A stretch of 64,000 nt of DNA. It comes from a virus (taxonomy: Duplodnaviria > Caudoviricetes). This document shows, in pieces, positions 7,700 to 46,072 of the stretch. The stretch lies in the IMG/VR virus record IMGVR_UViG_3300013383_000025, positions 31,957 through 95,956 of that record, one strand, 5' to 3'. Made by a program: the position numbers and the translations under genes. Position 1 is the stretch's first letter, and the number at the start of each line of letters is the position of its first letter. The notes under the pieces were generated by a model. It was given only the letters and a program-made list of their open reading frames with translations. It searched no databases and was not told the origin of the DNA.

Positions 7700-9442
7700 A
7701 TGGCGAAATATTTAACCAATATTGATTTAATGAAAAACGAGCTTCAGAATGCCGTTCTTCAACCACTAGCGGTTGCTCCATCTAATCCAAAAGAAGGCCA
7801 GTTCTACTATAATAGTGGTGATAAGGTTGTATATAGATATGATGGTACAAGTTGGGGACCGATTGGAGTTGTATATCAGCAAGGTTCTACTACTGGGGCT
7901 GTCATTACAGGTCTTGATGAAAGTGGAAACGTAACAACCACTGACGTTGTCAATCTGACTCTAGCTGGGTATACACCTGTTGAAGATGGCTATGTGAGTG
8001 CTGATATGAGTCTTGAAGATGCGTTGAAGGCGCTTGATACAGCTGTTAAAAACGCTGTTGCTGGTGGTGGCGAAGTCAACCAGAACGCATGGTCTAATAT
8101 CAGCGTAAAGAAGCAGAGTACGGCTACTACAGCTGTGACTGGTGCAACTGCCGACACCACCCTTGCCGCAGCAAGCAAGACAGATACGTTCTCTGTAGCG
8201 TCTGGTAATAAGTGGGTTGACATCAACGGTTCTGGCAAGACGGTTAATATTGGTCATAGTCTGAGCGGTGCTACTGCTGGCACATATGGCGCGGCTGGCT
8301 CTGTGGCTCAGGTTACAGTTGATGAGGCGGGTCATGTTACTGCGGCGCAGAATGTAGCCATTACCCCAGCGGCTATTGGCGCGGCAACTACTGATGCCGT
8401 CGAGGCGGCTCAGACGGCTGCCGATAATGCACAGACAGCAGCAGATAGCAAAGTAGCATCTGTTGGTGCTACTGCCAATGGTGGTATTACTATTGGTGGT
8501 ACGGCCACTGAGCCCACTGTTGGTATTAAGCTAGATACAACCAATGGCAATGCGGCCTCTCTATCTGCTGACGGCCTCATGGTCACCATTCCAGAGGTCA
8601 ACGTGCCAGAATATACCATTACTAAGTTGACTACAGCTACAAGCGGCTATCTAGCATCCTATCAGCTTGAGAAGGATGGGGTTAAGGCTGGTGAAGTTAT
8701 CAACATTCCCAAGGACTATCTAGTTAAGAGCGCGTCCATCAAGACCTCTGCTGGTGAAGATGACCCATCTGGTTTACCTGCCGACTCTAAGTATATTGAT
8801 TTCGTTATCAATACACATGACACTGCGTCAGGGACTGGCACAGAGAGCCATATTTATTTAAATGTTGAAGACCTAGTTGATGTTTATACGGCTGGTAATG
8901 GCATTAGCATTGATGCATCTAATGTTGTGTCTGCTAAGGTTGTTGCTGGCAACGGTTTATCTATTGACGAATCTGGCATTAAGATGGGTGCGGCTTCTGC
9001 TACTACCGCAGGTGCTATGAGCGCCGATGATTTCAGCAAGCTGGCTGGTATTGAAGCTGGCGCAACCAATAATAAAATTACACTAAACGGCACGACAACC
9101 AAGAACCCAAGTTTCTATGCGCCTACTACCGGAGGTACTGCCGGTCAGCATCTTGTCTCTAATGGCTCTGATGCGCCAGCTTGGCAAAATATGCCAACTA
9201 TTCTTAAGAAATATACTGCTACAAATGGTGAACTTACTGCCACCGGTGGTGTATACTCATGGACAATTGCTAAGGCAACACATGGAGTAGAAACACCGGC
9301 AACTGTGCAACTATATGAAGTGGCAACTAATGAACAGGTCATTGCAGATGTTGTAATTGCCACCAATGGGGGGGTTACCATTAAAATTAACGGAACCGGT
9401 ACTCTTGAGGCTGGCACATATAGAGTAGTAATCATTGGATAA
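7700..9442 (+). CDS. Tail fibre-like protein
   Basis: Thr/Ala/Gly-rich; YTAGNGISI and SKLAGIEAGA fibre motifs. Confidence 0.7.
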   Translation: MAKYLTNIDLMKNELQNAVLQPLAVAPSNPKEGQFYYNSGDKVVYRYDGTSWGPIGVVYQQGSTTGAVITGLDESGNVTTTDVVNLTLAGYTPVEDGYVSADMSLEDALKALDTAVKNAVAGGGEVNQNAWSNISVKKQSTATTAVTGATADTTLAAASKTDTFSVASGNKWVDINGSGKTVNIGHSLSGATAGTYGAAGSVAQVTVDEAGHVTAAQNVAITPAAIGAATTDAVEAAQTAADNAQTAADSKVASVGATANGGITIGGTATEPTVGIKLDTTNGNAASLSADGLMVTIPEVNVPEYTITKLTTATSGYLASYQLEKDGVKAGEVINIPKDYLVKSASIKTSAGEDDPSGLPADSKYIDFVINTHDTASGTGTESHIYLNVEDLVDVYTAGNGISIDASNVVSAKVVAGNGLSIDESGIKMGAASATTAGAMSADDFSKLAGIEAGATNNKITLNGTTTKNPSFYAPTTGGTAGQHLVSNGSDAPAWQNMPTILKKYTATNGELTATGGVYSWTIAKATHGVETPATVQLYEVATNEQVIADVVIATNGGVTIKINGTGTLEAGTYRVVIIG

Positions 9443-10124: not shown

Positions 10125-11102
10125 ATGGCAAGTATTAAAACAGGCGACGTCCTCAATTACACATATACTGGCTCCGTGCAATCTGTCCAGTTACCTCCAG
10201 GTACATATACACTAGAATGTTGGGGTGCTCAAGGCGGCTATAGGTCCAGTTCTACATATGGCGGCAAGGGTGGCAAATCATATGGTATATTAACATTAAA
10301 AAGAAAGACCACGGTATATATCTATGTAGGTGGGGCTGGTAATACAGGAAAGACGAATGGCGGTTTCAATGGCGGTGGCAAGCGCGGTTCATACAATGGC
10401 GGCGGCGGTGCGTCTGATATTCGTATTGGCACAGATAGCTTATATGCTCGTGTTATCGTAGCTGGTGGTGGTGGCTCAGATGGCGCATCCTCAAAGACAG
10501 GTATGTATGGTGGCGGCGAATCTGGTGGCTCATCATCTGAGAATTATGGTACGGGCGGCTACGGTGGTACACAGACAGGCGTTTCTAGTTCATCATGGCA
10601 AACAACTAGTCAATCGACATCTACAACGACTCAAACTGGCGCATATGCCGGATTTGGCTTTGGTGGAAATGGTATCACTAGCAGCTCGGGCTATGGTGGT
10701 GCTGGAGGCGGAGGTTGGTATGGCGGCTCAGGTTCATACCCAGATGGCTCAGGAGATGATGATAGAGGTGGCGGCGGTGGCTCGGGATATGTATATACGT
10801 CATCTACCGCTTCTAATTATCCAACCGGTTGTTTGCTGAATAGTGAATATTATTTATCTAATGCCGTAACGAAGGCTGGTAATGTATCGTTTACTGGAAC
10901 GGGCGGTTCTAGCGAAACAGGACATAGTGGAAATGGATACGTGCGCATTACAGCCAATAAAGTTCAGTCACTGAATATTCCTGTTAATATCGGTGGTACT
11001 TGGAAAGATATGGATTCTGCATATGTCAATATTGGTGGCGTATGGAAGTCAGTAGAAGCCGCATATGTGAATGTAGGTGGAACATGGAAAGAATTATCAT
11101 AA
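10125..11102 (+). CDS. Glycine-rich (polyglycine-II type) virion protein
   Basis: ECWGAQGG...GGGGASDIR...VAGGGG pattern; VNIGGTWK-like repeat x3 at the C-terminus. Confidence 0.75.
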   Translation: MASIKTGDVLNYTYTGSVQSVQLPPGTYTLECWGAQGGYRSSSTYGGKGGKSYGILTLKRKTTVYIYVGGAGNTGKTNGGFNGGGKRGSYNGGGGASDIRIGTDSLYARVIVAGGGGSDGASSKTGMYGGGESGGSSSENYGTGGYGGTQTGVSSSSWQTTSQSTSTTTQTGAYAGFGFGGNGITSSSGYGGAGGGGWYGGSGSYPDGSGDDDRGGGGGSGYVYTSSTASNYPTGCLLNSEYYLSNAVTKAGNVSFTGTGGSSETGHSGNGYVRITANKVQSLNIPVNIGGTWKDMDSAYVNIGGVWKSVEAAYVNVGGTWKELS

Positions 11103-13426: not shown

Positions 13427-15505
13427 ATGGCATTAAATATTACACAGGACGATTATAATATTCTTAGGCAATCATATATTAAGCAGTATATTAAGCTCGA
13501 CCTGTTAGACTTCAACATGAACGTCGTAGATGAGTTGAGTGGCAACCTCATCGGCTTCTCTGTGGCGGTTGATGCAAATGCTGATTTGCGACGTTCATGT
13601 GAATGTAGCTTAGTTGTTACAGACAGCTCCTTTGAGATTAAGGCTGGTGGCAAGATTTTTCTTGATAGATATATTCGCCCATGGATTGGCTATGAGAATA
13701 TGCGAACAGGTAACATTCAGTGGTATAATCAGGGCGTATATCTAATCAATGCACCTAGTTATCAGTATGATGCCGCTAATTACACTTTGTCATTTTCTGG
13801 GCTTGACCTGATGGCCAAGTTGACAGGACTGAGAAATGGTGAATTACCTGGCGTACCGACAAAAATTCCTATTGGCTCAGATGTGCGTGGAGCAATTATT
13901 GCCGCATTGGAATTAGGGGGGTTTACCAAATATATTGTCAGTGAATGTAAGAACGTAGATGACACAATACAGGAAGTGCCATATGATATTGAGATAGCAC
14001 AGGGTGGCACAGTATATGATATTCTCAAAGAGTTACTTGCTATCCTACCTCAGTATCAGATGTATTTTGATGTTGATGGCGTATTTCACTATGAGCCTAT
14101 CCCAACCGGAGCAAATGACCCAGTGTTGATTGATGATGATGTGTGGCAAAATATTGTTATTCAAGAATCAGTAAGCACTGATTTTGAGAATGTCAAGAAC
14201 TATATAGAGGTATATGGCCGCAGTCATGACATCGACCACTTTAGCGATAAGACAACCGTAGATGGCTCGACCGTCACGTTGCATATACCGTCATTAACGC
14301 CGACAACAACAGGGTCATTTCCAATTGATGAATTTACGCTAATTGGATTTGTGCCTCCTAGTGATGTAACTGGCGATATTCAGCTAAAGGTAACGGCTGG
14401 CGCTAGTGAGGCCGAGGCTACTGTATTGGGCACATATAAATTCGTTAATAAGGATGGTTCATTCGTGACCTCACTGACAAACGGCACATACTATGTTGGC
14501 CAATTTCAAGCAGATGGCACATTCTTAGATATTGGTCAAGACCAAGCAGTGGGCACGGCATATGATAATAATCCAGACAGCCCCTTCTATGTGGGCGACC
14601 CCGTTGGCTCTAGCTCGGTTGGTATCATTAGACACGTATGCTATAGCGGCGAATACGACAATATTACATCAAACGACCTAGCTAAGCAACGTGCCGACTT
14701 AGAACTATATTGGCGGTGTCGGCTAAACGATAGCATCTCATTGGCTACTATACCAATTCCTTGGCTTGATGTTAATATTATTATGAGCCATGCCATGAAA
14801 TTACAAGGCGACCAAAAGAAATATATGATACAGTCATATAATGCCCAATATGGCGATGCAAACAGTATGACCATATCAGCGTCAAGTTGGTATCCTTATT
14901 ATTTGGTCGACGGAACATCTGAGCCGGTTGAGCTACAGTATATTATGTCTACGGGTAGCCAGCTTATTAGCACCGGCTTTATCCCAAACAATAACACACG
15001 TGTTCAGATGGTGGTAACGCCAATGAATAATACAAGTGGCTACATATTCGGCTCATTATATACCAATGAGAAGGAAGATCAAGCCGCAGATGATACATAT
15101 ACATATTTTGGGGTGTCATACAATAATGGTACGGTCGCGTTTGGCTATAATCAAGACAACACGCAAACAATATCAGTAGGCGCGTCATTTGCCAAGATGA
15201 CCGTGGATATGAATAAAAATCAACTTACAGTCAATGGGCAAACCGTGCAATATGATGCAAGCGAATTTAAGATGAAGAACAATATGGCGCTATTAACTTA
15301 CAGCAAAGACGGATTTTTTCAAAAACCGGCATTGGCGGCGTTCCTACATTCGTGCAAAATATGGGATGATGGCGTGCTGATTAGGGATTATGTTCCATAT
15401 CAGAACAAGCTGGGCGATGTCGGCCTATGGGATAGAGTGAATAGTGTATTTTATGGAAATATGGGCACAGGCAAATTTACGGCTGGCCCAGCAGTAGAAG
15501 AATAA
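13427..15505 (+). CDS. Baseplate hub/Tal-like protein with C-terminal lectin-like beta domain
   Basis: N-terminal RRSC..SLVV and YQMYFDVDGVFHY hub motifs; C-terminal LQYIMSTGSQ...IRDYVP...GLWDRV. Confidence 0.65.
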   Translation: MALNITQDDYNILRQSYIKQYIKLDLLDFNMNVVDELSGNLIGFSVAVDANADLRRSCECSLVVTDSSFEIKAGGKIFLDRYIRPWIGYENMRTGNIQWYNQGVYLINAPSYQYDAANYTLSFSGLDLMAKLTGLRNGELPGVPTKIPIGSDVRGAIIAALELGGFTKYIVSECKNVDDTIQEVPYDIEIAQGGTVYDILKELLAILPQYQMYFDVDGVFHYEPIPTGANDPVLIDDDVWQNIVIQESVSTDFENVKNYIEVYGRSHDIDHFSDKTTVDGSTVTLHIPSLTPTTTGSFPIDEFTLIGFVPPSDVTGDIQLKVTAGASEAEATVLGTYKFVNKDGSFVTSLTNGTYYVGQFQADGTFLDIGQDQAVGTAYDNNPDSPFYVGDPVGSSSVGIIRHVCYSGEYDNITSNDLAKQRADLELYWRCRLNDSISLATIPIPWLDVNIIMSHAMKLQGDQKKYMIQSYNAQYGDANSMTISASSWYPYYLVDGTSEPVELQYIMSTGSQLISTGFIPNNNTRVQMVVTPMNNTSGYIFGSLYTNEKEDQAADDTYTYFGVSYNNGTVAFGYNQDNTQTISVGASFAKMTVDMNKNQLTVNGQTVQYDASEFKMKNNMALLTYSKDGFFQKPALAAFLHSCKIWDDGVLIRDYVPYQNKLGDVGLWDRVNSVFYGNMGTGKFTAGPAVEE

Positions 15506-15520
15506 GGAGGTCGTATAAAT

Positions 15521-16831
15521 TTGTCAGAAAAATTGATTACAATGAAGGAATACAATGGCTCATCCTATGATGACCTGTACCCTAAAAATATAAGCGGTCA
15601 AGTATATTTAGATGCGACGGCTCAAGGCGTGCTCAACCTACCAAGCGGCAAGACGGTAAATGATGCATTTAGCGCTATGTCCAATGGTGGCGCATTCAAT
15701 GTAGGTGACATCCTTGTTACTAGTAGGACAGATTTGGACGATAGGTGGTTGTTGTGTAATGGAGAAACTGTTTCTCCTTATGATTATCCGAATTTGATAA
15801 ATGCATTACCGGCTTTTAAAACAGGAACGTGGTTTGAAGATGGTATTTTTACGACTTCGTCTGAATACAAAGATTCTCATTCTATTGTAAAGCTCGATGA
15901 GAAGTGGGGCATATTATCAGCAAATCAACAAACCTCGCCAAGTTACGCAACAAATGGCAGAGTGTTTGTTTTGAGCAATTTGAAAAATGGGACAATCGCA
16001 GACACCGGATTGGGCGCTAGAGCGTCTGGTGCAGTTGCCGCAGTTGCTGCCCATGTTAATGATGGCAAATCGATGTGCGGTATGGTGTATGCTTTTACGG
16101 ACTTATTAACAAATCCAACGAGCAGCCAGATGTCTGCTTCTAACGGATATTTTATTTATAATTCGAATGATGGATATTATTATAACTATTCGAGAAATGA
16201 TTCATCCCCGTTCAATACAATCGTCAAACGGAATAATTTGACGAGTAGCGCTACAACATCAATAATAGAAGAATCTGGAAGCATTACATCTATAGGATTG
16301 CGACAGTTTATAAATGGGCATATGATTGGTGTTGGTGATGGTGGTAGTGGTGCTAACATTCATTTTATTCCGATTCTTGTAAATGAAAGTGGTGCTGGGA
16401 CAAGATTAAATTATAACACTCCAACCGGTACTATGTCGAACACGCCACCCATTCCTACAATTCAGTATCTTAATGGATATTATTACGGATTTGGAGATAC
16501 GACTATATATAGAACGCAATCTTTAACAGGTAATAACTGGCAATCATGGAAAACAATGCCTGATGGTATTAACTCTGGACTAAGTTATATGGGCGACAAT
16601 TGTATTTTACTAACAAGCGGATATACAATTACAGCAGATGAACAATTGATTGAATGGAGTGATAAACCGTCTTTTACAAATCCTATATATATTGATGAAG
16701 TAAATAATCAATATATATCTCAGATCGGTACGTCAAATATGTATATATATACCCCCATTTCTAATTTTATTAAAATCCCAACATGGACTCCCGCCGATGG
16801 CTTATACGCCTATATTAAAGCAAAGAAGTAA
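15521..16831 (+). CDS. Putative receptor-binding protein 1 (RBP1): collar-like domain with inserted variable core, no poly-G
   Basis: N-terminal KEYNG..YD.LYP and VGDILVTSRTDLDDRWLLCNG..YP.L; C-terminal IPTWTPADGLYAYIKAKK; both shared with RBP2 and RBP3. Confidence 0.75.
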   Translation: MSEKLITMKEYNGSSYDDLYPKNISGQVYLDATAQGVLNLPSGKTVNDAFSAMSNGGAFNVGDILVTSRTDLDDRWLLCNGETVSPYDYPNLINALPAFKTGTWFEDGIFTTSSEYKDSHSIVKLDEKWGILSANQQTSPSYATNGRVFVLSNLKNGTIADTGLGARASGAVAAVAAHVNDGKSMCGMVYAFTDLLTNPTSSQMSASNGYFIYNSNDGYYYNYSRNDSSPFNTIVKRNNLTSSATTSIIEESGSITSIGLRQFINGHMIGVGDGGSGANIHFIPILVNESGAGTRLNYNTPTGTMSNTPPIPTIQYLNGYYYGFGDTTIYRTQSLTGNNWQSWKTMPDGINSGLSYMGDNCILLTSGYTITADEQLIEWSDKPSFTNPIYIDEVNNQYISQIGTSNMYIYTPISNFIKIPTWTPADGLYAYIKAKK

Positions 16832-16848
16832 AAACAAGGAGGTAAATT

Positions 16849-17061
16849 ATGGTAATAACTAGACCTCAGTTGCCAGCTAGAGCTGGATATGTAGAAATCA
16901 TTAATGAGAATGGCGAACACGTATACAAGCCAACTCAAGAGACTATTGATAGACAGAATCAAGAAAATCTCATCCTTGAGTTGCAGAATAGGCTGGTAGA
17001 AGCAAATTCTGTAATCGATGCGATGATTGGCGTTAAGGAACAGGAGGTGGCGACTGAATGA
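16849..17061 (+). CDS. Small fibre chaperone-like protein
   Basis: GGAGG RBS, coiled-coil C-terminus, follows RBP1. Confidence 0.5.
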   Translation: MVITRPQLPARAGYVEIINENGEHVYKPTQETIDRQNQENLILELQNRLVEANSVIDAMIGVKEQEVATE

Positions 17062-17708
17062 TTGACAGAATAGCACAAGCCCAGCAATTTAGAAAAGCGG
17101 TACAATATTTCACGGCTACATTACCTGAAGAAAAGGCGCTAGTTGTATCTAGCGTATTTGATGCATGGGCGGCCAATGTCAAATATATCACAGGCGAATG
17201 GGTGTCATACGGTGTCAATGCTGTAGGTGACCCACAGCTATATCAGGTGCTACAAGACCATACTAGCCAAGAGCAATACACGCCAGATACGGCTACGAGC
17301 TTATATAAAGCGGTTGGCATTGACCCAAGTGGTATTCCTACTTGGGTTCAGCCACTAGGCGCAACAGATGCTTATAAGCTAGGTGATATCGTCATGCATA
17401 ATGACAAGAAATGGAAGAGTGTAGTTGACGCTAACGTGTGGGAGCCGGGCGTATATGGCTGGGAAGAAGTAACAGAGGATAGTGGTGAAACAGACCCTGT
17501 TGAACCTACTGAACCAACAGAGCCAGACGAACCAGATACGCCGAGCGAGGATACAATCCCTGACTTCGTTCAACCTACAGACGCAACCAATGCATACAAC
17601 AAGGGCGATAAGGTAAAATATAACGGTAAGGTATATGAGAGTCTGATGGATGGAAATGCGTATAGCCCAGACGCATATCTTGCCGGTTGGAAAGAAATTA
17701 CGGAATAA
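17058..17708 (+). CDS. Carbohydrate-binding (CBM5/12, ChiC-like) repeat protein
   Basis: WVQP.GATDAY..GD.V..N.K.W.S repeats with a Pro/Glu linker. Confidence 0.75.
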   Translation: MIDRIAQAQQFRKAVQYFTATLPEEKALVVSSVFDAWAANVKYITGEWVSYGVNAVGDPQLYQVLQDHTSQEQYTPDTATSLYKAVGIDPSGIPTWVQPLGATDAYKLGDIVMHNDKKWKSVVDANVWEPGVYGWEEVTEDSGETDPVEPTEPTEPDEPDTPSEDTIPDFVQPTDATNAYNKGDKVKYNGKVYESLMDGNAYSPDAYLAGWKEITE

Positions 17709-17733
17709 CAATGGAAATTAGGAGGAATATATA

Positions 17734-18063
17734 ATGAGTGCAGAACAAATTGTTAGTCTAGTGGTAGCGCTACTTGCCGGTCTGGCAACCTGTATCCCGC
17801 TTGTTCTCAAGTTGGTACAGTATGTAAAAAAGGCGACTCAAGAAAAGAACTGGGCTGGACTACTCGACCTAGTTATGAAGCTAATGGAACAGGCCGAAAA
17901 GAAATTCGCTGATGGCGCGACCCGTAAAGAGTGGGTTATGGCTATGGTGCAGACAAGCGCAGAATACGTGCAGTATCCAATGGACGTGACAGCTCTTAGC
18001 GATATGATTGACCAACTGACCAACCTGACTAAGAATGTCAACGCCAAGAAGGAGAGCAAGTAA
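17734..18063 (+). CDS. Holin (single N-terminal TM, LL-H-like)
   Basis: Hydrophobic N-terminus, AEK.F..G..RKEWV motif, directly upstream of the endolysin. Confidence 0.75.
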   Translation: MSAEQIVSLVVALLAGLATCIPLVLKLVQYVKKATQEKNWAGLLDLVMKLMEQAEKKFADGATRKEWVMAMVQTSAEYVQYPMDVTALSDMIDQLTNLTKNVNAKKESK

Positions 18064-18731
18064 TGGCTGTATATATTGGTCAGGCCAGTATTGACGAAAA
18101 CGGTAATATCAAGAACGGTCAAGCTGGCAATCAATCGGGGCGTGAACTAAACAAATCGGGCTGGTATAGCAATGGCTGGACATTACTGATTAGAGCTAAA
18201 GACCCAAAGACGGCTGAAAAGATGGCTGAGGCGTGTGAGGCTGGTGTAGCTAACAGAAATATTGGCTACGACCAGTGGCAGAGAAACACGCTTAGAGCTG
18301 AAGCAAAAAAGGCTGGTTGGAATCTAGCCGCAATCAAGGCCCCATGTGAGACGGACTGTTCGGCGTTTATGGCGGTTTGTGCCGAGGCGGCTGGTGTCAA
18401 TATGGATATGACATATACGGCTGGTAATGCGCCCGCTACGTTCCAGATGCGTCAACAGTGGGCTAAAACAGGCAAGTTTGATATGCTGACCGATAAGAAA
18501 TATCTAACATCGGCTGATTATCTAAGACGTGGTGACGTGCTAGTCAATGAAAGCCGTCATACTGTAATGGTGCTTAATGATGGTGCTAAAGCCGAGAAGG
18601 CCAATCCTGAGCACGAGGCGAATAAGGTCAAAGTAAAGTCGCGTTTTGGATTTGACGATAAGACAATCGATTGGCTCGACACATATAAATGGAATGAGGC
18701 GCTATTTGAGAAATTAGCGACCAAGCCATGA
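18063..18731 (+). CDS. Endolysin (NlpC/P60-CHAP-like Cys peptidase/amidase)
   Basis: IGYDQ..R, ETDCSA and GDVLVNE..HTVMV (Cys/His dyad) motifs. Confidence 0.8.
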   Translation: MAVYIGQASIDENGNIKNGQAGNQSGRELNKSGWYSNGWTLLIRAKDPKTAEKMAEACEAGVANRNIGYDQWQRNTLRAEAKKAGWNLAAIKAPCETDCSAFMAVCAEAAGVNMDMTYTAGNAPATFQMRQQWAKTGKFDMLTDKKYLTSADYLRRGDVLVNESRHTVMVLNDGAKAEKANPEHEANKVKVKSRFGFDDKTIDWLDTYKWNEALFEKLATKP

Positions 18732-18985
18732 ACCGACTTAGCTATAAGCGAAGATGGGCTAAAGGACAGATGAGTAAAACAATCGTTCTATACTGCATTA
18801 GGGCAATCACTCTAATTGCAGTATGGGCGGTTGCCATTAAGACATATGCTGTTTTCAAGTGGGGCGCGACCGATATTAGTGATGTGTTGATATTTGCTGC
18901 TACAGCATTTGGTGGTGAATTGCTCTTATTGGCATTTAAGCGTGTCTTTGCTAAAAAGAATGAAGATGTAAACGAATATAGTTAA
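18728..18985 (+). CDS. Two-TM membrane protein (second holin/antiholin-like)
   Basis: Two hydrophobic segments, basic ends, overlaps the endolysin stop. Confidence 0.55.
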   Translation: MNRLSYKRRWAKGQMSKTIVLYCIRAITLIAVWAVAIKTYAVFKWGATDISDVLIFAATAFGGELLLLAFKRVFAKKNEDVNEYS

Positions 18986-18999
18986 AAAGGGGTGACATA

Positions 19000-19326
19000 A
19001 TGGCAACTAAATTCCCCGGACAAGTTGATACATTCCCAACCATGCTTGATATCGCAGCTGACGATGCTGAGTTGGTCAAGCAATATCAGGAGGCCATGGA
19101 GGCTGGGAGTTACGATGTAGCGCAACAGGTGCTATCACAGATTCCTAACGGCCAAAGAAAGATTATATCCGCAGGGTTGATGAATGACGTATTAGATGGC
19201 TTAACCGCAACAGAACAATATTTTGGTGATAGATATAGTCCGGCCTATATTGTATCTGAGACACAACCTACATATCAGCAAGCCACGGATTTCTGGTTTC
19301 ATGTAACAGGTGAGGCTGACATATGA
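19000..19326 (+). CDS. Tail adaptor-like protein
   Basis: C-terminal SETQPTYQQATDFWFHVTGEADI resembles the C-terminus of 11118-11414. Confidence 0.55.
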   Translation: MATKFPGQVDTFPTMLDIAADDAELVKQYQEAMEAGSYDVAQQVLSQIPNGQRKIISAGLMNDVLDGLTATEQYFGDRYSPAYIVSETQPTYQQATDFWFHVTGEADI

Positions 19327-19604
19327 CAAAATACCAAGACCTACATCTAACGGATGTTGACCTGAACACCCAATTCAAACAGTATATGACTAATGGTCAG
19401 TATGGGGCGGCGCTGGCCATCCTACAAAATGACCAACTAGCCGATAAGACGGTAATTGCGGCATTGTTTAATTATGTGACCAGCCGTATTATACAGGTAC
19501 AGTCGACATCTGACCCTACATTCAAACAAGATAAAATTCAGGTTGCCACTACGCCTCCTAGTGGCATGACAAGCGGACAGGTATATTTTCAATTAAAGGA
19601 GTAA
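19323..19604 (+). CDS. Tail adaptor-like protein (paralogue of 19000-19326)
   Basis: KQY...G.Y..A..IL pattern shared with the previous gene; C-terminal TTPPSGMTSGQVYF. Confidence 0.55.
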   Translation: MTKYQDLHLTDVDLNTQFKQYMTNGQYGAALAILQNDQLADKTVIAALFNYVTSRIIQVQSTSDPTFKQDKIQVATTPPSGMTSGQVYFQLKE

Positions 19605-19608
19605 TATA

Positions 19609-20918
19609 ATGTCAGATAAACTAATAACGATGAAAGAATATAATGGCAATTCCTATGATGCCTTATATCCTGAAAATACGAGTGGACAGGTCAATCTTGA
19701 CGCATCTGCCCAAAACATCCTCAACCTCTCTACTGACACTACGCTGAATGATGCATTCACTGCGTTGACCACGGGGGGGGGTATTCAGTAGGCGACGTAT
19801 TAGTCACTGCTAGAACTGACCTTGATGATAAGTGGTTGTTGTGCAATGGGCAAGAATTTGATAGTGCTGAATATCCTGCATTAAATGGCGTACTTGGACA
19901 GAGTGTCAGCGTATTAGATAGTTCAAGATGGAGTACAGTGACATATGATGGTGTTTTGGGGAACAGATTGTATTATTGTGGTGGAAGGTTCTATGCTGTT
20001 ACTAGATTACCTTCGACCGAATATTTAAGTGGCAACTACAAAAAAGATTCCTATCATGGAGATTCGTGGAGTAGTGTTGTAATCAACAACAGCAACTATT
20101 ATATATTACATGATATGTGCGATGTAAACGGGGTTGCCTACGCTGCCATAAGTCAAAACTCCTATTCATCACGAGAAACACCATACCTTTATAAGTTGGA
20201 TGAAAATAACAATGCGACTATGATTGGAAGCAATATCTCCGTATTTGGTATGTGCGAATATAATGGAAAAATATTGATATCAAATAATGGTGTGAGCCTA
20301 GTAGACCCTTCGACAGGGGCCGTAACAACCTTTACGTCATCCTCTTTGGGGAGTGGGGATTGGTTTCATGTTGGCAATATGGTTTATTGTGTAAATAAAG
20401 TTCTTGACTTGCAAACCAAAACAATAAGCGCGTTGAGTACGACTGGTACTGGGAATTCTTTTGGATATTACAACGGTTATTATTATATGTCGAGTTCGCA
20501 ATCTGTCTACAACCCCCAAACCAAACAAGACGTTATAAACATTCATCTTTTACAGTCTAGTGACGGTGTTACATTTACTTCTATATATAACAGAACTATT
20601 AGTGGCTCTTTGGGTCAAGATGCGGAAGATCCTCATCTTGTATTATTTATTATCGGCGATGAATTATTATTCGATACGAATATTTACAAATTGACCGATA
20701 CTGGAGCACAGTTAATATCTTCTAGTAACAGTCACGTGTGCAATTGCGCGGCTATGAACAATGTAAATGTGTCAAATGAAAAATCTATTGTAATAAACAT
20801 TAATGAGAGGAACGGTTCTGGTTACTCAACCGTGTATCTATTTAATAGAAGTGGAACAAAAACCCCAACATGGACTCCCGCCGGTAGTCTGTACGCCTAT
20901 ATCAAGGCAAAACGATAA
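19609..20918 (+). pseudogene. Putative RBP2, frameshifted at a G9 tract (phase-OFF)
   Basis: ORFs 19609-19791 and 19836-20918 join if G9 becomes G10, giving TGGGYSVGDVLVTARTDLDDKWLLCNG, collinear with RBP1 NGGAFNVGDILVTSRTDLDDRWLLCNG. Confidence 0.88.
19773..19781 (+). repeat. Poly-G tract (G9) in RBP2
   Basis: acc ac GGGGGGGGG tattcagta. Confidence 0.95.
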
Positions 20919-20948
20919 AATAACAACTCTAAGGAGGTTGAATATAAA

Positions 20949-22361
20949 TTGGCAACTAAGAAAAATTTTACTGTGAAGGAATACAATGGTGCAGATTATG
21001 ACACTCTGTATCCAGAAACAAATAGCGGACAGGTATTGCTTGATAACACCGCCAAGGCAGAGCTAGGGCTTGCGGGGGGGGGGCAGACTCCACCGACTCT
21101 TGATGATGCGTTAAGCAAGCTAAATAAATTTGATAATCGCTACGAGATTGGCGATGTATTGACAACAAGCAGAACCAATCTCAGCGACAAATGGTTACTT
21201 TGTAATGGTGCTACATTGGATAATGGTGAGTATCCTGAATTGGGTGCTCAGTTTTCCGGCGTTGAAATGCATTTTGATAAAGTTAGCAAACAGAGCTTTA
21301 CTATGAGTGCAAATATAAAACCATTTGACTATAGTGTTGCATCAAGGAAGCTAGATAATGGAAGCGAAGAGCTTTTAATGTCAATAAAGTATAAGTATGA
21401 TTATGTATCGTCTTTGTATTATAAAAATTTATCAGTTAGTGGCGATTGGGTTTTATTAGGAGATGCAGATACAGTATATTATGCATATTCTATGAATAAT
21501 AATTTTGTCATTATTCCAATATCAAATGCTGACTTATCTAGCTACAAAGCCAAGTATTGTATTGGAAGTCCGACTTCCTTTAGTAGTTTCCAAAATTTAC
21601 AAATACCGTCTTCTTTACCATCTTATCCACATTGGGCAGATGCCAAATATTATAACGGAAAGTATTATTTTGGTATACGGAGTGATTCTGGACAGGTGTG
21701 GATTTATGATTCGTTATCATCGTCACCAATAGTTGCATCATACGATGTTGGAGAGTATGGTACTGGGCATGGATGTTTGGGTATTGCAGATGGAAAAATA
21801 ACTACAAGTTATACACGATACAGAGGTAGTGATGATTATAGTCTTGGGTTTGTTGGCATAACTGGTGACGGTGGAACTGTTGAAATATCATCACACTATG
21901 GAGCATCGTCATCTTCTTATCAACCATTGCCAACTGCAATTTGGAAATTTGCTGGGAAATATTATTATGTGGCGTTTGGTTCTAATATTACTTCATCGTA
22001 TGTGTATCTTACCGTTAATCAAGCAGATTCGCTTTCGGATACCCCAACACAAATAAAATACATCTCAACAGATTCAACATTAGGCAAAAAAAATAATCCA
22101 TGGGCAACGTATATGGTGACAGATAATGCAATACTATTGCCAGATAAAACATATATAAACTTAAACAATAAATTAAAGAGCTGGGAAAACACCTCTTCTA
22201 TATCGCAATCGCAGTGTATGTCATTCTCTCAAACCGATTCAGCTATTTACGCAATGTGCCCACAATACGAAATCTGGCGCTCAAGCAAGTCAGCTCAATT
22301 CAAGCTCCCTAAATACTCTCCTGCGACTGGGCTACGTGCCTACATCAAAGCAAAAGATTAA
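20949..22361 (+). CDS. Putative RBP3 with in-frame G10 tract (phase-ON)
   Basis: Same N-terminal anchor and collar motifs; C-terminal LPKYSPATGLRAYIKAKD. Confidence 0.78.
   Translation: MATKKNFTVKEYNGADYDTLYPETNSGQVLLDNTAKAELGLAGGGQTPPTLDDALSKLNKFDNRYEIGDVLTTSRTNLSDKWLLCNGATLDNGEYPELGAQFSGVEMHFDKVSKQSFTMSANIKPFDYSVASRKLDNGSEELLMSIKYKYDYVSSLYYKNLSVSGDWVLLGDADTVYYAYSMNNNFVIIPISNADLSSYKAKYCIGSPTSFSSFQNLQIPSSLPSYPHWADAKYYNGKYYFGIRSDSGQVWIYDSLSSSPIVASYDVGEYGTGHGCLGIADGKITTSYTRYRGSDDYSLGFVGITGDGGTVEISSHYGASSSSYQPLPTAIWKFAGKYYYVAFGSNITSSYVYLTVNQADSLSDTPTQIKYISTDSTLGKKNNPWATYMVTDNAILLPDKTYINLNNKLKSWENTSSISQSQCMSFSQTDSAIYAMCPQYEIWRSSKSAQFKLPKYSPATGLRAYIKAKD
21074..21083 (+). repeat. Poly-G tract (G10) in RBP3
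   Basis: ctt gc GGGGGGGGGG cag act. Confidence 0.95.
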
Positions 22362-22381
22362 ATATAAAGAAAAAATATTCA

Positions 22382-22413
22382 GAGCGCCCTGCAAATTGGG
22401 GCGCTCGATTTAT
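22382..22413 (+). terminator. Stem-loop/terminator after RBP3
   Basis: gagcgccc (22382-22389) pairs with gggcgctc (22399-22406), then gattttatt. Confidence 0.55.
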
Positions 22414-22427
22414 TGAGGTGATAATAT

Positions 22428-23732
22428 ATGAAAACAATTAGAGCAAATGATGGTGGATATCTATTAAATGCAAAACAGTTTAGTTATACGAAAGACGAAC
22501 AAGGCAGACCTGTGCTAAATGTACAAAGTGTAACTGGTGGCGACTTCAAAGCGGATGGCACAGTGCCTATGACCGGCAATCTGTATATGGACGGAAACAG
22601 TATCATAGGCGTTAATTCCATTAGTAATACAAATAGCGGTATCGCCATCGAATCAGAGGTTAGTTTGAACAATCACAAGATTACAGATTTACTCGATCCT
22701 ACAGAAAATCAAGATGCCGCAACTAAAACTTATGTTGATGGCAAAGTGCCGACAAAAGTTAGCGAATTAAGCAATGATTCTAAATTTATTGTAGCGGCTG
22801 AAGCGCCTGTTCAATCGGTCAATAAAAAGACCGGTTCTGTCAGCCTAACTGCATCTGACGTTGGGGCGCTACCTTCTACTACTAAGATTCCCACCAAAAC
22901 CTCCGAGCTTGAGAATGATGCTGGTTTCTTAACGAACTCTGCTGTTAAATCGGTTAATGGGAAGACAGGCGTTGTGACGTTGGTGGCTGGTGAAATCGGT
23001 GCTGTCCCTACCACGAGAACAGTGGCTGGTCATACGCTTTCCGCAAATGTGACGCTTGTAAAGGGCGACGTTGGACTTGGCAATGTAGATAATACCTCGG
23101 ATGCTGACAAGCCAGTTTCTACAGCAACTCAAACGGCGCTTGACGACAAAGTATCAACGACGCGCAAGGTTAATGGCAAGGCTCTATCGGCTGACATTAC
23201 TTTAACCGCCACTGATGTTGGCGCGGCAACTAAGGCCTATGTAGATGAACATAGCTTGCTTGGGGACAATGGAAAAGTTGATAGTGACTTAGATATGAAC
23301 GAGCATGGTATTATCAATGCTCATAGAATTAGCACAGACGGGCCAGCACCACTATATATTGGCTCAACTATTGAGGATTCTGGTACAAACGCACCAAGGT
23401 TGACCGGTTCTAATGATGGAACTGCGGCATTCGTCAAGGCTGATACTCAATCAACTTATGTTGCAGTTAGTGTTGGTGCACCAACCGCAACAAACCATGC
23501 AACCACCAAAGAATACGTTGATGGAAAAACTGGGGCTGTTCAAGCTAGTGCGTTGCTTAAATCCGGGGGTACTATGGTAGGAAAATTAAAACTGACCGCT
23601 GAGGCAACCGAGGATAATGACGCTGTTAACAAGGCATACGTTGACGCTATTTTACCAGCCTTTACCGCCAATGACAATGGTAAAATATTAGGCGTTGTTG
23701 ACGGCGCTCTTGCATGGGTATCAAAAACATAA
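22428..23732 (+). CDS. Fibre protein with repeated AATK.YVD and VKSVNGKTG motifs
   Basis: DAATKTYVD, HATTKEYVD, DAVNKAYVD and GLGNVDNTSDADKPVS repeats. Confidence 0.7.
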   Translation: MKTIRANDGGYLLNAKQFSYTKDEQGRPVLNVQSVTGGDFKADGTVPMTGNLYMDGNSIIGVNSISNTNSGIAIESEVSLNNHKITDLLDPTENQDAATKTYVDGKVPTKVSELSNDSKFIVAAEAPVQSVNKKTGSVSLTASDVGALPSTTKIPTKTSELENDAGFLTNSAVKSVNGKTGVVTLVAGEIGAVPTTRTVAGHTLSANVTLVKGDVGLGNVDNTSDADKPVSTATQTALDDKVSTTRKVNGKALSADITLTATDVGAATKAYVDEHSLLGDNGKVDSDLDMNEHGIINAHRISTDGPAPLYIGSTIEDSGTNAPRLTGSNDGTAAFVKADTQSTYVAVSVGAPTATNHATTKEYVDGKTGAVQASALLKSGGTMVGKLKLTAEATEDNDAVNKAYVDAILPAFTANDNGKILGVVDGALAWVSKT

Positions 23733-23752
23733 TAGAGGGTGGAGGATAGAAT

Positions 23753-24283
23753 ATGGCTAATTTTTGTGGCGGCATCAAACTTGGTGCTACACTCAAACTA
23801 ATCAATGGGGTGATTTGTGATGCAAATACAACAACTGTTGATAAATCTAAGGCAGTTTCTACTTGCGGCCAGCTCTGGGATGGCGCACTATTTACCGTGG
23901 CTGCGGTTGGCGGCGCTAAGCTTATTACTCTACACAATAGCGAAGGCGAGGAAGTTGGTACGCCTGTTGTCGGTAGGGGCAATTGTGGTGTTGGTCTTGA
24001 TGGACGTTTTTTCAAGGTTGTAAAGGGCACTGTTGAGCTACAGGACGGTTTTGTATTGACTGTTGATGTAACACCAAAGGATGCTATCATTACTGTCACC
24101 GATGCTGATGGCGAAGAGGTCGACCCTGTTAGCGACAATGCCAAGCAATTTCTGCTAAGTGGCATTGGCGATACATACACTGTCACGGCCACTAAAACAG
24201 GATATACTACTGAAGCTAAACAAGTCAAGAATACTGGCGACCAGACATTTAAGATGGTGATGAAAGCGGTTGCTGGCGACTAA
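23753..24283 (+). CDS. Virion protein with C-terminal PEGA/Ig-like domain
   Basis: LTVDVTPKDA.ITV...YTVTATKTGY pattern. Confidence 0.55.
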   Translation: MANFCGGIKLGATLKLINGVICDANTTTVDKSKAVSTCGQLWDGALFTVAAVGGAKLITLHNSEGEEVGTPVVGRGNCGVGLDGRFFKVVKGTVELQDGFVLTVDVTPKDAIITVTDADGEEVDPVSDNAKQFLLSGIGDTYTVTATKTGYTTEAKQVKNTGDQTFKMVMKAVAGD

Positions 24284-41616: not shown

Positions 41617-42142
41617 CCAAACACATCATCCTTCTTACTAATTCTCTCAAATACAAGTTGAGATGGTAACACGTTGTGACACAAATAGCCACTTTGAAAC
41701 GGGACAGAGCCAGAGTGCAATTAGGTCTAATGTATGACACGCGAGGACTGAGCCACATCATTTCACAGCCATTTGCTTCAAATAGGTCAAAACGCACCTT
41801 GTTATCAAAGATACCTTGAAAATTTATAAGCATAGCGAATGGCTTGCCGAGGTTGTATAGCCTTTGAAAAACTTCTGTCTTTAGGGAATATGGAGGATTA
41901 GAGATGATATAGTCTGTTCCAAATGGCGGCTTGTTCTCAAAGAAATCTAGCCCTATTGAAATATGTGCATATATGACGTTATGTCCAGCCTTAGACAATA
42001 CTTGAACAAATTGACTCTCTTCTGTGTCAAATGGACACTAAATATTGCTATGAGGTAGAAGATATTTGAGAAGCGGCTTGACCGCATATGCAGGAGTGTA
42101 ATATTCATCATTCTTATTGAATTTATATTGAATTTGAGACAT
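41613..42142 (-). pseudogene. N6-adenine DNA methyltransferase pseudogene (TAG at codon 35 plus a frameshift near 41705-41722)
   Basis: NDEYYTP...I*CPFD (family motif recalled as IWCPFD), ISNPPYS; the alternative frame gives PFQSGYLCHNVLPSQLVFERI ending in an ATGA overlap. Confidence 0.85.
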
Positions 42143-45124: not shown

Positions 45125-46072
45125 TTATCCAACCTCCCTAATTTCCTTTTCGAGTGCCATAGAATCAACGCCAACTTTATGACAAATATAATTCACAGCA
45201 TTGGCATTACCAAAGCGCCAATACATATCGTCTTTGTCTGTCGCTTTGTTGTTGTCGGCGCTATCTCTGAGCAACGTTTCAACAGCGCTAATAAATTTAC
45301 GTCTTGAAATTAAACCAAACATTCACTTAATCCTCCTTATTGTCTTCTTTATTCAAAGCTGCTACGGCCATAGCAATGGCCTCTGATAATCTAATATCGC
45401 TATAGGTATGCTGATGATATTCCATACATAATGCCTTATACTTACTGTATTCTTTAACTAATAAATTTGCAGCTTCTTGATTTGTCATCATTCACCTCAA
45501 CTAATTTCTTTTAGCCAAAAATCACGACGACAATCCTCGCAGAATTTATAACTACATGGACTACGTTCTTGATACTCCTCATCAATGTCCATAGGGCATA
45601 AAAGTACACAACCATTTATTATTTTTGATTTGGGAAAAACATCGAGTAGTTTATCCTGCATTGTTTTGATGGGATGTTCTTTTGCCCATTGCTCAACGGC
45701 ACATACTTGTTTAACGCAGTCGTCATCTGTATCATCATCCTCACAATGAAACAATGGGCAACTATCTTCACAAATATTGTTATTACACAATCTTCTTCGA
45801 GTTTTCAAAAATTCAACAGCATCCATTATTTTAATCCTCCTTTACATTTTCTCGCATTGCCATTCGTAATCCTCAACAACAGCGTCTCGTATATCAAGCC
45901 AAAATCCAGCCAGATACTCTACTGAATATTCAGGGAATGCAGTGACTAAGGTTTTTGCCGTCTTCGGACCAGCACTGAGAACATTGTTAATGATACCAAG
46001 CAACTTATTACTTTTATTTACAACTTCTTCCATGCCTTCAACTCCTGATAAGTTTGGTCTGTTCTCACCCAT
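45125..46072 (-). CDS. Cluster of small hypothetical genes (45125-45322, 45497-45826, 45842-46072)
   Basis: Packed ORFs with GGAGG-type RBSs. Confidence 0.5.

What the first reader, a model, noticed from the sequence alone, without database searches (positions are those of the whole stretch)
19609..20918. Phase-variable RBP switched OFF by a G9 tract (candidate contingency-locus host-range system)
Seen: G9 at 19773-19781 shifts the frame and stops at 19791. One more G restores exact collinearity with RBP1 (TGGGYSVGD vs NGGAFNVGD). RBP1 encodes the same glycines as GGT GGC, and the Gly-rich gene at 10125 almost never uses GGG, so the run is not forced by the protein. Established: hypermutable poly-G tracts switch RBPs in Campylobacter Fletchervirus phages. 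Inference: an analogous system in a Bacillota-type phage, with one fixed RBP and two stochastic ON/OFF RBPs (four states). The OFF allele still makes a 60-aa anchor-only peptide that could cap the docking site.
Basis: partly seen in the sequence, partly recalled or inferred. Interest (0 to 1): 0.9.

Follow-up and report, generated by a model that had tools for sequence, protein, structure and literature searches.

The report
Poly-G switches in gut-phage tail fibres
Two neighbouring tail-fibre genes of a 96-kb gut phage each carry a long run of G bases that differs in length between otherwise near-identical public copies, so each fibre gene is found both intact and broken, much like the poly-G switches known from Campylobacter phages.

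Summary
G9 lies at 19773-19781 and breaks a 436-aa tail-fibre/RBP gene after 60 codons; one more G gives TTGGGYSVGD. The next paralogue (20949-22361) holds a G10 at 21074-21083 and is intact. These are the only G/C runs of 9 or more in the 95,956-bp genome (expected about 0.1).

- RBP2: of the 15 listed members (of 21) of its 90%-identity cluster, 10 are full-length ON forms and 5 start at internal start codons (OFF-like). One ON form matches the window's two fragments at every residue.
- RBP3: of 15 listed (of 29), 6 are ON and 9 OFF. The residues imply G8, G10, G11 and G13. An A8 run in the same gene stays in frame in 15 of 15.
- Relatives: more distant metagenomic kin and cultured Enterocloster bolteae phages also carry G8-G12 runs in fibre genes.

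No sequencing run was listed, so heterogeneity within one population is untested, and so is any effect on host range. The closest known system is the poly-G tracts in Fletchervirus RBP genes. I file this as a new member of that kind, in a Lachnospiraceae-type siphophage lineage. The anchor-only "cap" peptide is speculation.

The parts
13427..15505 (+). Baseplate/tail protein (692 aa) that precedes the first RBP. It was used as the anchor for finding relatives.
   Evidence: PHROG 1887 tail protein, E 7e-18. Pfam DUF5048, E 4.8e-21. 42% identical to the protein annotated as baseplate hub in Enterocloster phage PMBT24.
15521..16831 (+). RBP1, 436 aa: a paralogue without any G run, taken to be the constitutive fibre.
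   Evidence: Shares the N-terminal 60-aa anchor (65% identical to the RBP2 fragment), the collar-like motif and the C-terminal ...PTWTPA.GLYAYIKAK. The junction NGGAFNVGD is encoded with GGT GGC.
19000..19604 (+). Two small ORFs (108 and 93 aa). In relatives they lie directly upstream of the single RBP; here they lie upstream of RBP2.
   Evidence: Synteny by tblastn. Relatives run tail692, o108, o93, RBP. The window runs tail692, RBP1 ... o108, o93, RBP2, RBP3.
19609..19791 (+). RBP2, 5' fragment of the OFF allele: 60 codons (anchor domain), ending at TAG 19789-19791.
   Evidence: A strong Shine-Dalgarno AAGGAG lies upstream.
19773..19781 (+). G9 tract, the switch of RBP2, at the junction between the anchor and the collar-like domain.
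   Evidence: G10 or G7 joins the frames. The 10 full-length members among the 15 listed of the 90% cluster all read TTGGGYSVGD.
19782..20918 (+). RBP2 downstream frame (378 aa): collar-like motif, variable domain and the conserved C-terminus.
   Evidence: Pfam Collar PF07484 scores 23.9 bits against a cut-off of 24. P0020 (436 aa) equals the 5' fragment plus this frame with 0 differences. The internal starts at 19836 and 19938 lack an RBS.
20949..22361 (+). RBP3, 470 aa, TTG start: intact (ON) in this genome.
   Evidence: RBS AAGGAGG. The AF2 model has a confident all-beta domain at about residues 100-460 that matches beta-propellers.
21074..21083 (+). G10 tract, the switch of RBP3. It encodes GGG GGG GGG in the loop ...GLAGGGQTPP.
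   Evidence: Cluster members read LAGGGQ, LAGGGGQ, MRGGGQ, MRGGQ, or start further downstream.
22086..22093 (+). A8 run inside RBP3, used as an internal control homopolymer.
   Evidence: 15 of the 15 listed cluster members read through it in frame.
22428..23732 (+). A different tail-fibre protein (434 aa) with repeats. It closes the fibre module.
   Evidence: Many PHROG tail-fibre and minor-tail families, best E 6.5e-20. Conserved in relatives.

Best explanation
The G9 and G10 runs are hypermutable contingency tracts in two paralogous tail-fibre (putative receptor-binding) genes. The phage is a roughly 96-kb siphophage-type genome related to Enterocloster (Lachnospiraceae) phages.

Inferred mechanism: slipped-strand mispairing during replication adds or removes G residues. 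In RBP2, lengths G7, G10 and G13 keep the anchor domain in frame with the collar-like and variable domains (ON); in RBP3, G10 and G13 do. Other lengths stop translation after 60 codons in RBP2 or about 45 in RBP3 (OFF).

Inferred consequence: RBP1 has no tract. A lysate would therefore hold virions with RBP1 alone, with RBP2, with RBP3, or with both, which is bet-hedging on host surface receptors.

Shown here:
- The tracts exist, and their composition is not forced by the protein.
- ON and OFF forms occur among otherwise identical or near-identical copies.
- Switching has happened repeatedly.

Inferred only:
- The slippage mechanism.
- That these proteins are incorporated into virions.
- That they bind receptors.
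- Any effect on host range.
For: 1. The tracts are real and non-random. They are the only G/C runs of 9 or more in 95,956 bp (expected about 0.1). GGG is the rarest Gly codon at 10.2%. Relatives encode DGGGF at RBP2's site with no G run of 5 or more.

2. RBP2's 90% cluster has 21 members, of which 15 are listed. Ten are 436 aa and read TTGGGYSVGD. Five (326, 326, 326, 267 and 359 aa) start at internal GTG, TTG or ATG codons, as a gene caller does on a frameshifted gene. P0020 (ON) has 0 differences from the window's two fragments. ON and OFF members are identical over the shared 266 residues, and the tree needs at least 3 switches.

3. RBP3's cluster has 29 members, of which 15 are listed.
- 3 read LAGGGQ and 3 read LAGGGGQ (ON).
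- 2 start MRGGGQ and 2 start MRGGQ (OFF, started at TTG-CGG inside the tract flank).
- 5 start further downstream (OFF).
- Inferred lengths are G8, G10, G11 and G13.
- A tree of at most about 0.05 changes per site needs at least 5 ON/OFF changes and 9 tract-class changes. P0038 (ON) and P0154 (OFF) are identical over 381 columns.

4. Control: the A8 run in RBP3 is in frame in 15 of 15.

5. Recurrence in kin.
- In three 54-55% relatives, every G run of 8 or more in the whole record lies in a small fibre gene with the same N-terminal motif: G11 (ON) and G8 (OFF) in L014, G12 (ON) in L015, G9 (OFF) in L016.
- Cultured phages CB457P1, CB457P2 and CB473P3 have a G9 at the anchor/variable junction of a collar fibre.

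6. The two window tracts lie at non-homologous positions, which implies independent origins.

7. Context fits a fibre module. The genes follow the baseplate protein. Their conserved N- and C-termini flank a variable domain; RBP3's was modelled and is a beta-propeller.
Against: - No reads were available, so heterogeneity within one population is not shown. Tract lengths in other copies are inferred from protein sequences, not DNA, on the assumption that the Gly codons are all GGG.
- Some ON/OFF differences could be homopolymer errors of assemblers. ON and OFF forms of both genes list a longest contig of 95,997 bp, which could be two assemblies of one sample.
- Only 15 of 21 and 15 of 29 cluster members could be seen.
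- The closest IMG/VR relatives (84-91% in the tail protein) have no G run of 7 or more in the fibre genes. L002's G7 at 14074 follows the RBP's stop. Four of five whole records searched have no G8 anywhere, and the fifth has only an intergenic G10. The trait is therefore patchy.
- The three cultured Enterocloster phages that carry the G9 all have the same length.
- Receptor binding is not shown. The Pfam Collar hit is just under its cut-off, and the propeller match is generic.
Confidence: 0.78

Rival explanations
1. Sequencing or assembly artefact. The true allele is G10 (ON) everywhere, and the G9 here and the OFF forms elsewhere are homopolymer miscalls in short-read assemblies.
For: - Long G runs are error-prone.
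- All 10 ON members of RBP2 have the same inferred length.
- ON and OFF forms of both genes list a longest contig of the same length, 95,997 bp.
- No reads could be examined.
Against: - RBP3's inferred lengths span G8 to G13, differences of -2, +1 and +3. Single miscalls would not produce these.
- 9 of 15 listed RBP3 members and 5 of 15 listed RBP2 members are OFF.
- The A8 run in the same gene is never out of frame (15 of 15).
- An artefact would not explain why the tracts exist against codon usage, or why they recur in fibre genes of relatives.
Confidence: 0.1
2. Programmed recoding. The G9 allele is the working form, and full-length RBP2 is made from it at a fixed rate. The route would be -1 ribosomal frameshifting on G GGG GGG, or transcriptional slippage, giving both an anchor-only peptide and the full fibre.
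For: - In the zero frame the run reads AC-G GGG GGG-GGT, which fits the X XXY YYZ slippery pattern.
- A -1 shift there gives exactly the protein of the G10 allele (read).
Against: - No stimulatory structure lies downstream. The 116 nt from 19765 fold no better than shuffles (z -0.55; 51 of 200 shuffles fold at least as well).
- Most listed copies of the gene (10 of 15) are simply in frame.
- RBP3 is in frame here, with G10.
- The tract length varies, which a tuned recoding site would not tolerate.
Confidence: 0.05
3. Gene decay. RBP2 and RBP3 are redundant accessory fibres that are being lost. The OFF alleles are ordinary pseudogenes, and the G runs are neutral by-products of Gly-rich linkers.
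For: - The closest relatives manage with one or two tract-free RBPs.
- The Gly-Gly-Gly motif at RBP2's junction is shared by relatives.
Against: - The OFF copies carry no other lesion. The downstream 378 aa are open and identical to ON copies.
- ON/OFF changes map at least 3 and at least 5 times on very shallow trees.
- The runs use the rarest Gly codon three times over.
- Loops with a Gly run at RBP3's site persist in orthologues down to 45% identity (P0039, P0042, P0046).
Confidence: 0.07

Closest known systems
Hypermutable poly-G tracts in the receptor-binding protein genes of Campylobacter Fletchervirus phages. Source: Sorensen et al. 2021, Cell Rep 35:109214. The paper is not held in the library; I know it only from passages that cite it in 10.1101/2025.10.21.683753 and PMC10877375.
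   Same: - G runs of 7-11 inside RBP genes, on the coding strand.
- Frameshift ON/OFF as the switch.
- Several RBP genes per phage (up to four, rbp1-rbp4), so a stock would be phenotypically mixed.
   Different: - The host phylum and phage type differ. The Fletchervirus genome is about 130 kb at 26% GC and infects Campylobacter; that these are myoviruses of a Gram-negative host is recalled. This genome is about 96 kb at 41% GC, and its nearest cultured kin are Lachnospiraceae siphophages.
- The Fletchervirus passage I read describes a pectin-lyase domain in RBP1. RBP3 here has a short anchor, a collar-like motif and a modelled beta-propeller. No Fletchervirus sequence was compared directly.
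- Here only comparative evidence exists. There is no read-level or phenotypic proof.
Phage contingency loci in T2 and T4. Source: Gomez, Barrick and Waters, bioRxiv 10.1101/2025.10.21.683753 (abstract, outline and passages read).
   Same: Homopolymer slippage produces reversible frameshifts and population heterogeneity in phage genes.
   Different: - That work concerns runs of 6 or more, mostly in non-structural genes such as agt and rIIA.
[quoted passage not shown]
- Here the long runs are confined to fibre genes.
Enterocloster bolteae phages PMBT24 (proposed family 'Kielviridae', PMC11035940; abstract and passages read) and CB457P1, CB457P2, CB473P1, CB473P2, CB473P3.
   Same: - Genome size of 96-107 kb.
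- The tail protein is 41-42% identical over 71% of its length.
- A similar module order, with a CBM5/12 protein and lysis genes inside the fibre region.
- G9 and G10 runs in fibre-module genes.
   Different: - They are distant at 33% GC.
- Their RBPs are not orthologous to RBP2 or RBP3.
- The PMBT24 paper has 0 occurrences of 'homopolymer' or 'frameshift'.
Other host-range switches in phages: Mu/P1 invertible fibre segments and diversity-generating retroelements. They are listed together with poly-G tracts in PMC12823448 (passages read).
   Same: Stochastic diversification of receptor-binding proteins within a phage population.
   Different: - A different mechanism: site-specific inversion, or reverse-transcriptase mutagenesis.
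- I did not search the window specifically for an invertase or a reverse transcriptase. None of the 20 ORFs scanned matched one.

Membership tests
Poly-G contingency loci in phage RBP genes (Fletchervirus type) | A homopolymeric G run of 7 or more inside the coding sequence of a tail-fibre/RBP gene. | tested here: met
   G9 at 19773-19781 and G10 at 21074-21083, inside two paralogous fibre genes.
Poly-G contingency loci in phage RBP genes (Fletchervirus type) | Tract length varies among near-identical genomes and gives in-frame and out-of-frame alleles. | tested here: met
   - RBP2: 10 ON and 5 OFF among 15 listed of 21 members.
- RBP3: 6 ON and 9 OFF among 15 listed of 29, with inferred lengths G8, G10, G11 and G13.
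- ON and OFF members are identical elsewhere.
- Lengths are inferred from protein sequences, not from DNA.
Poly-G contingency loci in phage RBP genes (Fletchervirus type) | A mixture of tract lengths within one phage population, above the sequencing error seen at control homopolymers. | not testable with these tools
   The look-up of sequencing runs listed no run.
Poly-G contingency loci in phage RBP genes (Fletchervirus type) | ON and OFF variants differ in receptor use or host range. | not testable with these tools
   This needs an isolate and a host. The host is unknown; the nearest cultured kin infect Enterocloster bolteae.
Poly-G contingency loci in phage RBP genes (Fletchervirus type) | Sequence homology to the Fletchervirus RBPs. 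| not tested
   No Fletchervirus sequence was fetched or compared. Homology is not needed for the mechanism.
Phage tail collar domain fibres (Pfam PF07484) | A score at or above Pfam's gathering cut-off of 24 bits. | tested here: inconclusive
   - The RBP2 downstream frame scores 23.9 bits and RBP3 scores 17.4 bits.
- Several family members carry a precomputed PF07484 label.
- PHROG tail-collar and tail-fibre hits are weak, E 5e-5 to 1e-2.
Programmed -1 ribosomal frameshift site | A slippery heptamer together with a downstream stimulatory RNA structure. | tested here: not met
   The heptamer G GGG GGG is present in frame. The downstream fold is no better than shuffles, z -0.55.
'Kielviridae'-like Enterocloster phages | Shared core genes and genome organisation with PMBT24. 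| tested here: inconclusive
   - Only the tail protein was compared: 42% identity over 71% of its length.
- Genome size is similar, and a DNA polymerase III alpha subunit is encoded in both.
- No genome-wide comparison was made.

The most novel reading that the evidence does not exclude
Poly-G contingency switching of tail fibres is a lineage-wide strategy of the large (65-107 kb) Lachnospiraceae-type siphophages of the human gut, and it reaches cultured isolates.
- In Enterocloster phage PMBT24, the gene annotated as a hypothetical protein at 48032-48757 would be the OFF phase of a fibre-module protein of unknown function. Its real start would lie ten codons upstream of a G10.
- In the window phage, RBP2 and RBP3 tend to be ON alternately, because they compete for one docking site through their near-identical anchors.
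Probability: 0.3. Interest if true: 0.75.

Novelty: new member of a known kind. Interest (0 to 1): 0.66.

Why it matters
In what I read, poly-G phase variation of receptor-binding proteins is described only for Campylobacter Fletchervirus phages, with a poly-G tract in a baseplate gene of PB1-like phages mentioned in passing. A 2025 preprint reports homopolymers as depleted in the tail fibres of coliphages.

This locus suggests that the same bet-hedging device arose independently in abundant, mostly uncultured phages of gut Bacillota. There are at least two independent tracts in one genome, and more in relatives.

Three consequences would follow:
- Such phages have a heritable but unstable host range, which matters for predicting hosts from metagenomes.
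- It bears on how such phages and their hosts coexist in the gut.
- Annotation pipelines that call these genes as truncated or "hypothetical" would be misreading them.

The cultured Enterocloster bolteae phages, which carry similar tracts, offer a way to test the idea at the bench.

Tried and rejected
- Reads: the look-up of sequencing runs on window 15500-23800 listed none.
- DNA of the near-identical copies:
  - Flank patterns with a variable gap found 0 matches in viral contigs for either tract.
  - The search for related loci with the RBP2 downstream frame in metagenome contigs gave only two distant loci, L020 and L021.
  - RBP3 in genome contigs gave none.
  - Megablast of 15000-24000 against 'phages' gave no match.
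  - Tract lengths elsewhere therefore rest on protein sequences.
- A wider DNA survey of the RBP family in IMG/VR with alignment A2 returned only 11 loci, mostly ones already held. No enrichment statistic across the family was possible.
- Programmed frameshift: rejected as the main explanation (and the variable tract length).
- Structure: the AF2 model of RBP3 gave only generic beta-propeller matches in the PDB. No phage RBP stood among the 42 rows displayed (ranks up to 50). The N-terminal 80 residues were modelled with low confidence, so nothing can be said about docking or the proposed cap peptide. No complex prediction was sent.
- ON/OFF pairing of RBP2 and RBP3: matching members by equal 'longest contig' length gives three pairs (11,472, 49,066 and 6,122 bp). 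All three are RBP2 ON with RBP3 OFF, the opposite of the window. This matching is indirect and n is 4, so I treat it only as a lead.
- Paper supplements were not opened. The supplementary tables of the PMBT24 and contingency-locus papers might list homopolymers that I could not see.
- Literature: five full-text searches turned up no report of poly-G switching in fibres of phages of Bacillota. This covers only the held library.
Full report
**1. What is in the sequence**

The window is bases 31957-95956 of a single 95,956-bp contig (41.4% GC). A terminal overlap of about 75 bp marks it as a complete, circularly assembled phage genome.

- G9 occupies 19773-19781.
- The ORF that starts at ATG 19609, behind an AAGGAG ribosome-binding site, reads 60 codons and stops at TAG 19789-19791.
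- The frame that begins at 19782 is open for 378 codons, to 20918. G10 or G7 would join the two and give ...TALTTGGGYSVGD...
- The next gene (20949-22361, TTG start behind AAGGAGG) is intact at 470 aa. It holds G10 at 21074-21083, read as GGG GGG GGG in ...GLAGGGQTPP....
- A third paralogue, RBP1 (15521-16831, 436 aa), has no run and encodes the matching glycines as GGT GGC.

The three proteins share three features (wider family):
- a conserved N-terminal segment of about 60 residues (KEYNG..YD.LYPE..SGQV);
- a collar-like motif (VGD.L.T.RT.L.DKWLLCNG);
- a conserved C-terminus (P.Y/W.PA.GL.AYIKAK).

Between these lies a variable middle.

**2. More than chance**

- The two runs are the only G or C runs of 9 or more in the genome.
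- A mononucleotide model expects 0.135 such runs. In 200 first-order Markov simulations the mean was 0.075 and the maximum was 1.
- GGG is the rarest glycine codon, 163 of 1605 in 90 crude ORFs. Of 17 Gly-Gly-Gly tripeptides, only RBP3's is all GGG (expected 0.018).
- The Gly-rich gene at 10125 uses GGG once in 81 glycines.
- Relatives that have DGGGF at RBP2's junction encode it with no G run of 5 or more.
- The two tracts are at different positions in the alignment. RBP3's sits in a loop insertion, and RBP2's sits at the junction of anchor and collar. This points to independent origins.

**3. What the genes are**

The genes lie in the tail module. Upstream are:
- a tape-measure-like protein (PhageMin_Tail);
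- a 692-aa tail/baseplate protein (PHROG 1887 and DUF5048).

Inside the module are a CBM5/12 protein and an endolysin-like-domain protein. Downstream is another fibre protein.

Evidence on the RBPs themselves:
- Pfam's Collar model scores 23.9 bits on RBP2's downstream frame, against a cut-off of 24.
- An AlphaFold2 model of RBP3, built from an 18-sequence alignment, has mean pLDDT 75.8. Residues from about 100 to 460 form a confident all-beta domain, and the first 80 residues have low confidence.
- Foldseek against the PDB returns generic beta-propellers.

A conserved anchor, a collar-like motif, a swappable propeller and the position in the genome fit a receptor-binding fibre. Binding itself is inferred, not shown.

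The nearest cultured relatives, by the tail protein (41-42% identity over 71% of its length), are the 96-107-kb Enterocloster bolteae phages PMBT24 and CB457P1, CB457P2, CB473P1, CB473P2 and CB473P3. PMBT24 is a siphovirus with thin tail fibres at the tail tip (PMC11035940, passages read). The actual host is unknown.

**4. Does the tract vary?**

No sequencing run was listed for the region. Heterogeneity within one sample could not be tested. The public protein collection gave a substitute.

*RBP2.* Its 90%-identity cluster has 21 members, of which 15 were listed.
- Ten are 436 aa and all read TTGGGYSVGD.
- Five are 326, 326, 326, 267 and 359 aa. They begin at internal GTG, TTG or ATG codons, which is what a gene caller produces on a frameshifted gene.
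- P0020 (ON) is identical at every residue to the window's two fragments.
- ON and OFF members are identical over the shared 266 residues. A poorly resolved, very shallow tree needs at least 3 ON/OFF changes.

*RBP3.* Its cluster has 29 members, of which 15 were listed.
- Three read LAGGGQ and three read LAGGGGQ (ON).
- Two begin MRGGGQ and two begin MRGGQ. These starts were called at the TTG-CGG that overlaps the left flank of the tract, so the upstream part is out of frame.
- Five begin further downstream (OFF).
- If the glycines are all GGG, these forms correspond to G10, G13, G11 and G8, plus at least one other out-of-frame length.
- On a tree with at most about 0.05 changes per site, at least 5 ON/OFF changes and 9 changes of tract class are needed. 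P0038 (ON) and P0154 (OFF) are identical over 381 columns.

*Control.* The A8 run at 22086-22093 in the same gene is read in frame in 15 of 15 members.

The switch therefore changes faster than single amino acids do, which is the mark of a hypermutable site. Differences of -2, +1 and +3 are hard to put down to miscalls.

**5. Relatives**

*Close relatives lack the trait.*
- Twelve IMG/VR loci with 84-91% identity in the tail protein show no G run of 7 or more in the fibre genes. L002's G7 at 14074 follows the RBP's stop. In the ten of these loci that reach beyond the tail protein, a single RBP follows it.
- The closest complete record has two RBPs and no G8 anywhere.
- One record has only an intergenic G10.
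- Compared with these relatives, the window has RBP1 directly after the tail protein. The cassette o108, o93, RBP2, RBP3 is placed after the lysis genes.

*More distant relatives carry it.*
- In three records at 54-55% identity (65-75 kb), every G run of 8 or more in the whole record lies in a small fibre gene that begins MADYNV.MKQ(Y/W)NG.SFDN(I/V)LP:
  - L014: G11, in frame, and G8, which splits the gene.
  - L015: G12 plus two extra bases, in frame with one more glycine. Its orthologue of the split gene is intact and has no tract.
  - L016: G9, which splits the gene.
- Among cultured phages, CB457P1, CB457P2 and CB473P3 have a G9 exactly where the conserved N-terminus of a collar fibre meets its variable part. 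CB473P1 and PMBT24 have an interrupted run there.
- RBP3 orthologues at 66%, 57% and 45% identity keep a G(L/I)AGGG(G) loop, while others read LPSGS. Their codons could not be seen.

The trait is patchy but recurrent in this phage group.

**6. Mechanism and rivals**

The best reading (confidence 0.78) is slipped-strand mispairing at the G runs. It would switch two accessory fibres on and off independently, beside a constitutive RBP1. A population would then hold up to four virion types.

What is shown:
- the tracts themselves and their bias against normal codon use;
- natural ON and OFF alleles on identical backgrounds;
- repeated switching.

What is inferred: slippage as the cause, incorporation into virions, receptor binding and host-range effects.

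Rivals:
- *Assembly error* (0.10). The range of lengths, the stable A8 and the existence of the tracts speak against it. It cannot be excluded for single copies, including the window's G9.
- *Programmed recoding* (0.05). The run fits a slippery heptamer, and a -1 shift would give the protein of the G10 allele. There is no downstream structure, and the length varies.
- *Plain decay* (0.07). OFF copies carry no second lesion, and the changes recur.

The internal starts after the tract lack ribosome-binding sites. The downstream part is therefore probably silent in the OFF state.

**7. Comparison with what is known**

- Fletchervirus phages of Campylobacter carry poly-G tracts of 7-11 in RBP genes and encode up to four RBPs. 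The source is Sorensen et al. 2021, which is not held and is known here only from citing passages.
- The 2025 preprint on phage contingency loci adds T2 and T4. It mentions poly-G tracts in a Bordetella phage methylase gene and in a baseplate gene of PB1-like phages. It reports homopolymers as under-represented in the tail fibres of 41 coliphages.
- A 2025 gut-phage paper lists poly-G tracts only as a possible determinant of host range.
- My five full-text searches found no report for phages of Bacillota. The PMBT24 paper does not mention homopolymers or frameshifts.

I file the locus as a new member of a known kind. The device is the same, but the lineage and host phylum are different, and no Fletchervirus sequence was compared.

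**8. Verdict**

The phenotype is untested. Interest is 0.66.

Noticed in passing
L018 (Enterocloster phage PMBT24, OQ326496.2) locus 20056-20912; record about 47901-48757: - A G10 (locus 20083-20092) lies ten codons after an ATG that has an AGAGG ribosome-binding site.
- With G10, that frame stops at 20130, while a 293-codon frame (20031-20909) is open across the tract. G11 or G8 would join them.
- GenBank annotates only an internal start (record 48032-48757, hypothetical protein).
- This may be an OFF-phase gene of the fibre module in a cultured phage.
   Followed up: partly
L018 locus 14160-14167 (PMBT24 record 42005-42012), and PMBT24 record 78317-78325: - A G8 lies just upstream of the start of the 945-aa protein that follows the chitin-binding-domain gene. 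It may act as a Shine-Dalgarno-like run.
- A G9 on the minus strand lies in an unannotated 570-bp gap between two minus-strand genes near recA.
   Followed up: partly
L042 (G007:C1:77415-77424), a relative with 88% identity in the tail protein: A G10 sits in a non-coding stretch upstream of a 346-aa gene, outside the tail module. Its function is unknown; it might lie in a promoter spacer or a hairpin.
   Followed up: partly
window 15521-22361 compared with L002-L012: The gene order differs.
- Relatives have tail protein, o108, o93, then a single RBP.
- The window has RBP1 directly after the tail protein, and the o108, o93, RBP2, RBP3 cassette after the lysis genes.
- This suggests a recombination or duplication that added two fibres.
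   Followed up: partly
window 23753-24283 (+): A 176-aa ORF after the fibre genes has a weak Pfam hit to class II bacteriocin (PF01721: E 1e-5, 25.9 bits against a cut-off of 24.5, residues 18-45). It is conserved in relatives.
   Followed up: no
window 10125-11102 (+): A 325-aa glycine-rich protein matches the ALK/LTK glycine-rich domain (PF12810, E 6.5e-43). This is an unusual domain for a phage tail module.
   Followed up: no
window 9368-9374 (+): A G7 run lies inside the 580-aa ORF 7700-9442, near its 3' end. It is the third longest G run of the genome. Variation in relatives was not examined.
   Followed up: no
RBP2 and RBP3 cluster members: - Members matched by equal 'longest contig' length (11,472, 49,066 and 6,122 bp) are all RBP2 ON with RBP3 OFF. 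The window is RBP2 OFF with RBP3 ON.
- This may mean alternating use of the two fibres.
- The matching is indirect and n is 4.
   Followed up: partly
window 46018-49170 (-): The phage encodes its own DNA polymerase III alpha subunit (PHP, NTPase, finger and HHH domains), as PMBT24 does. If this is the replicase, its slippage behaviour on G runs would set the switching rate.
   Followed up: no
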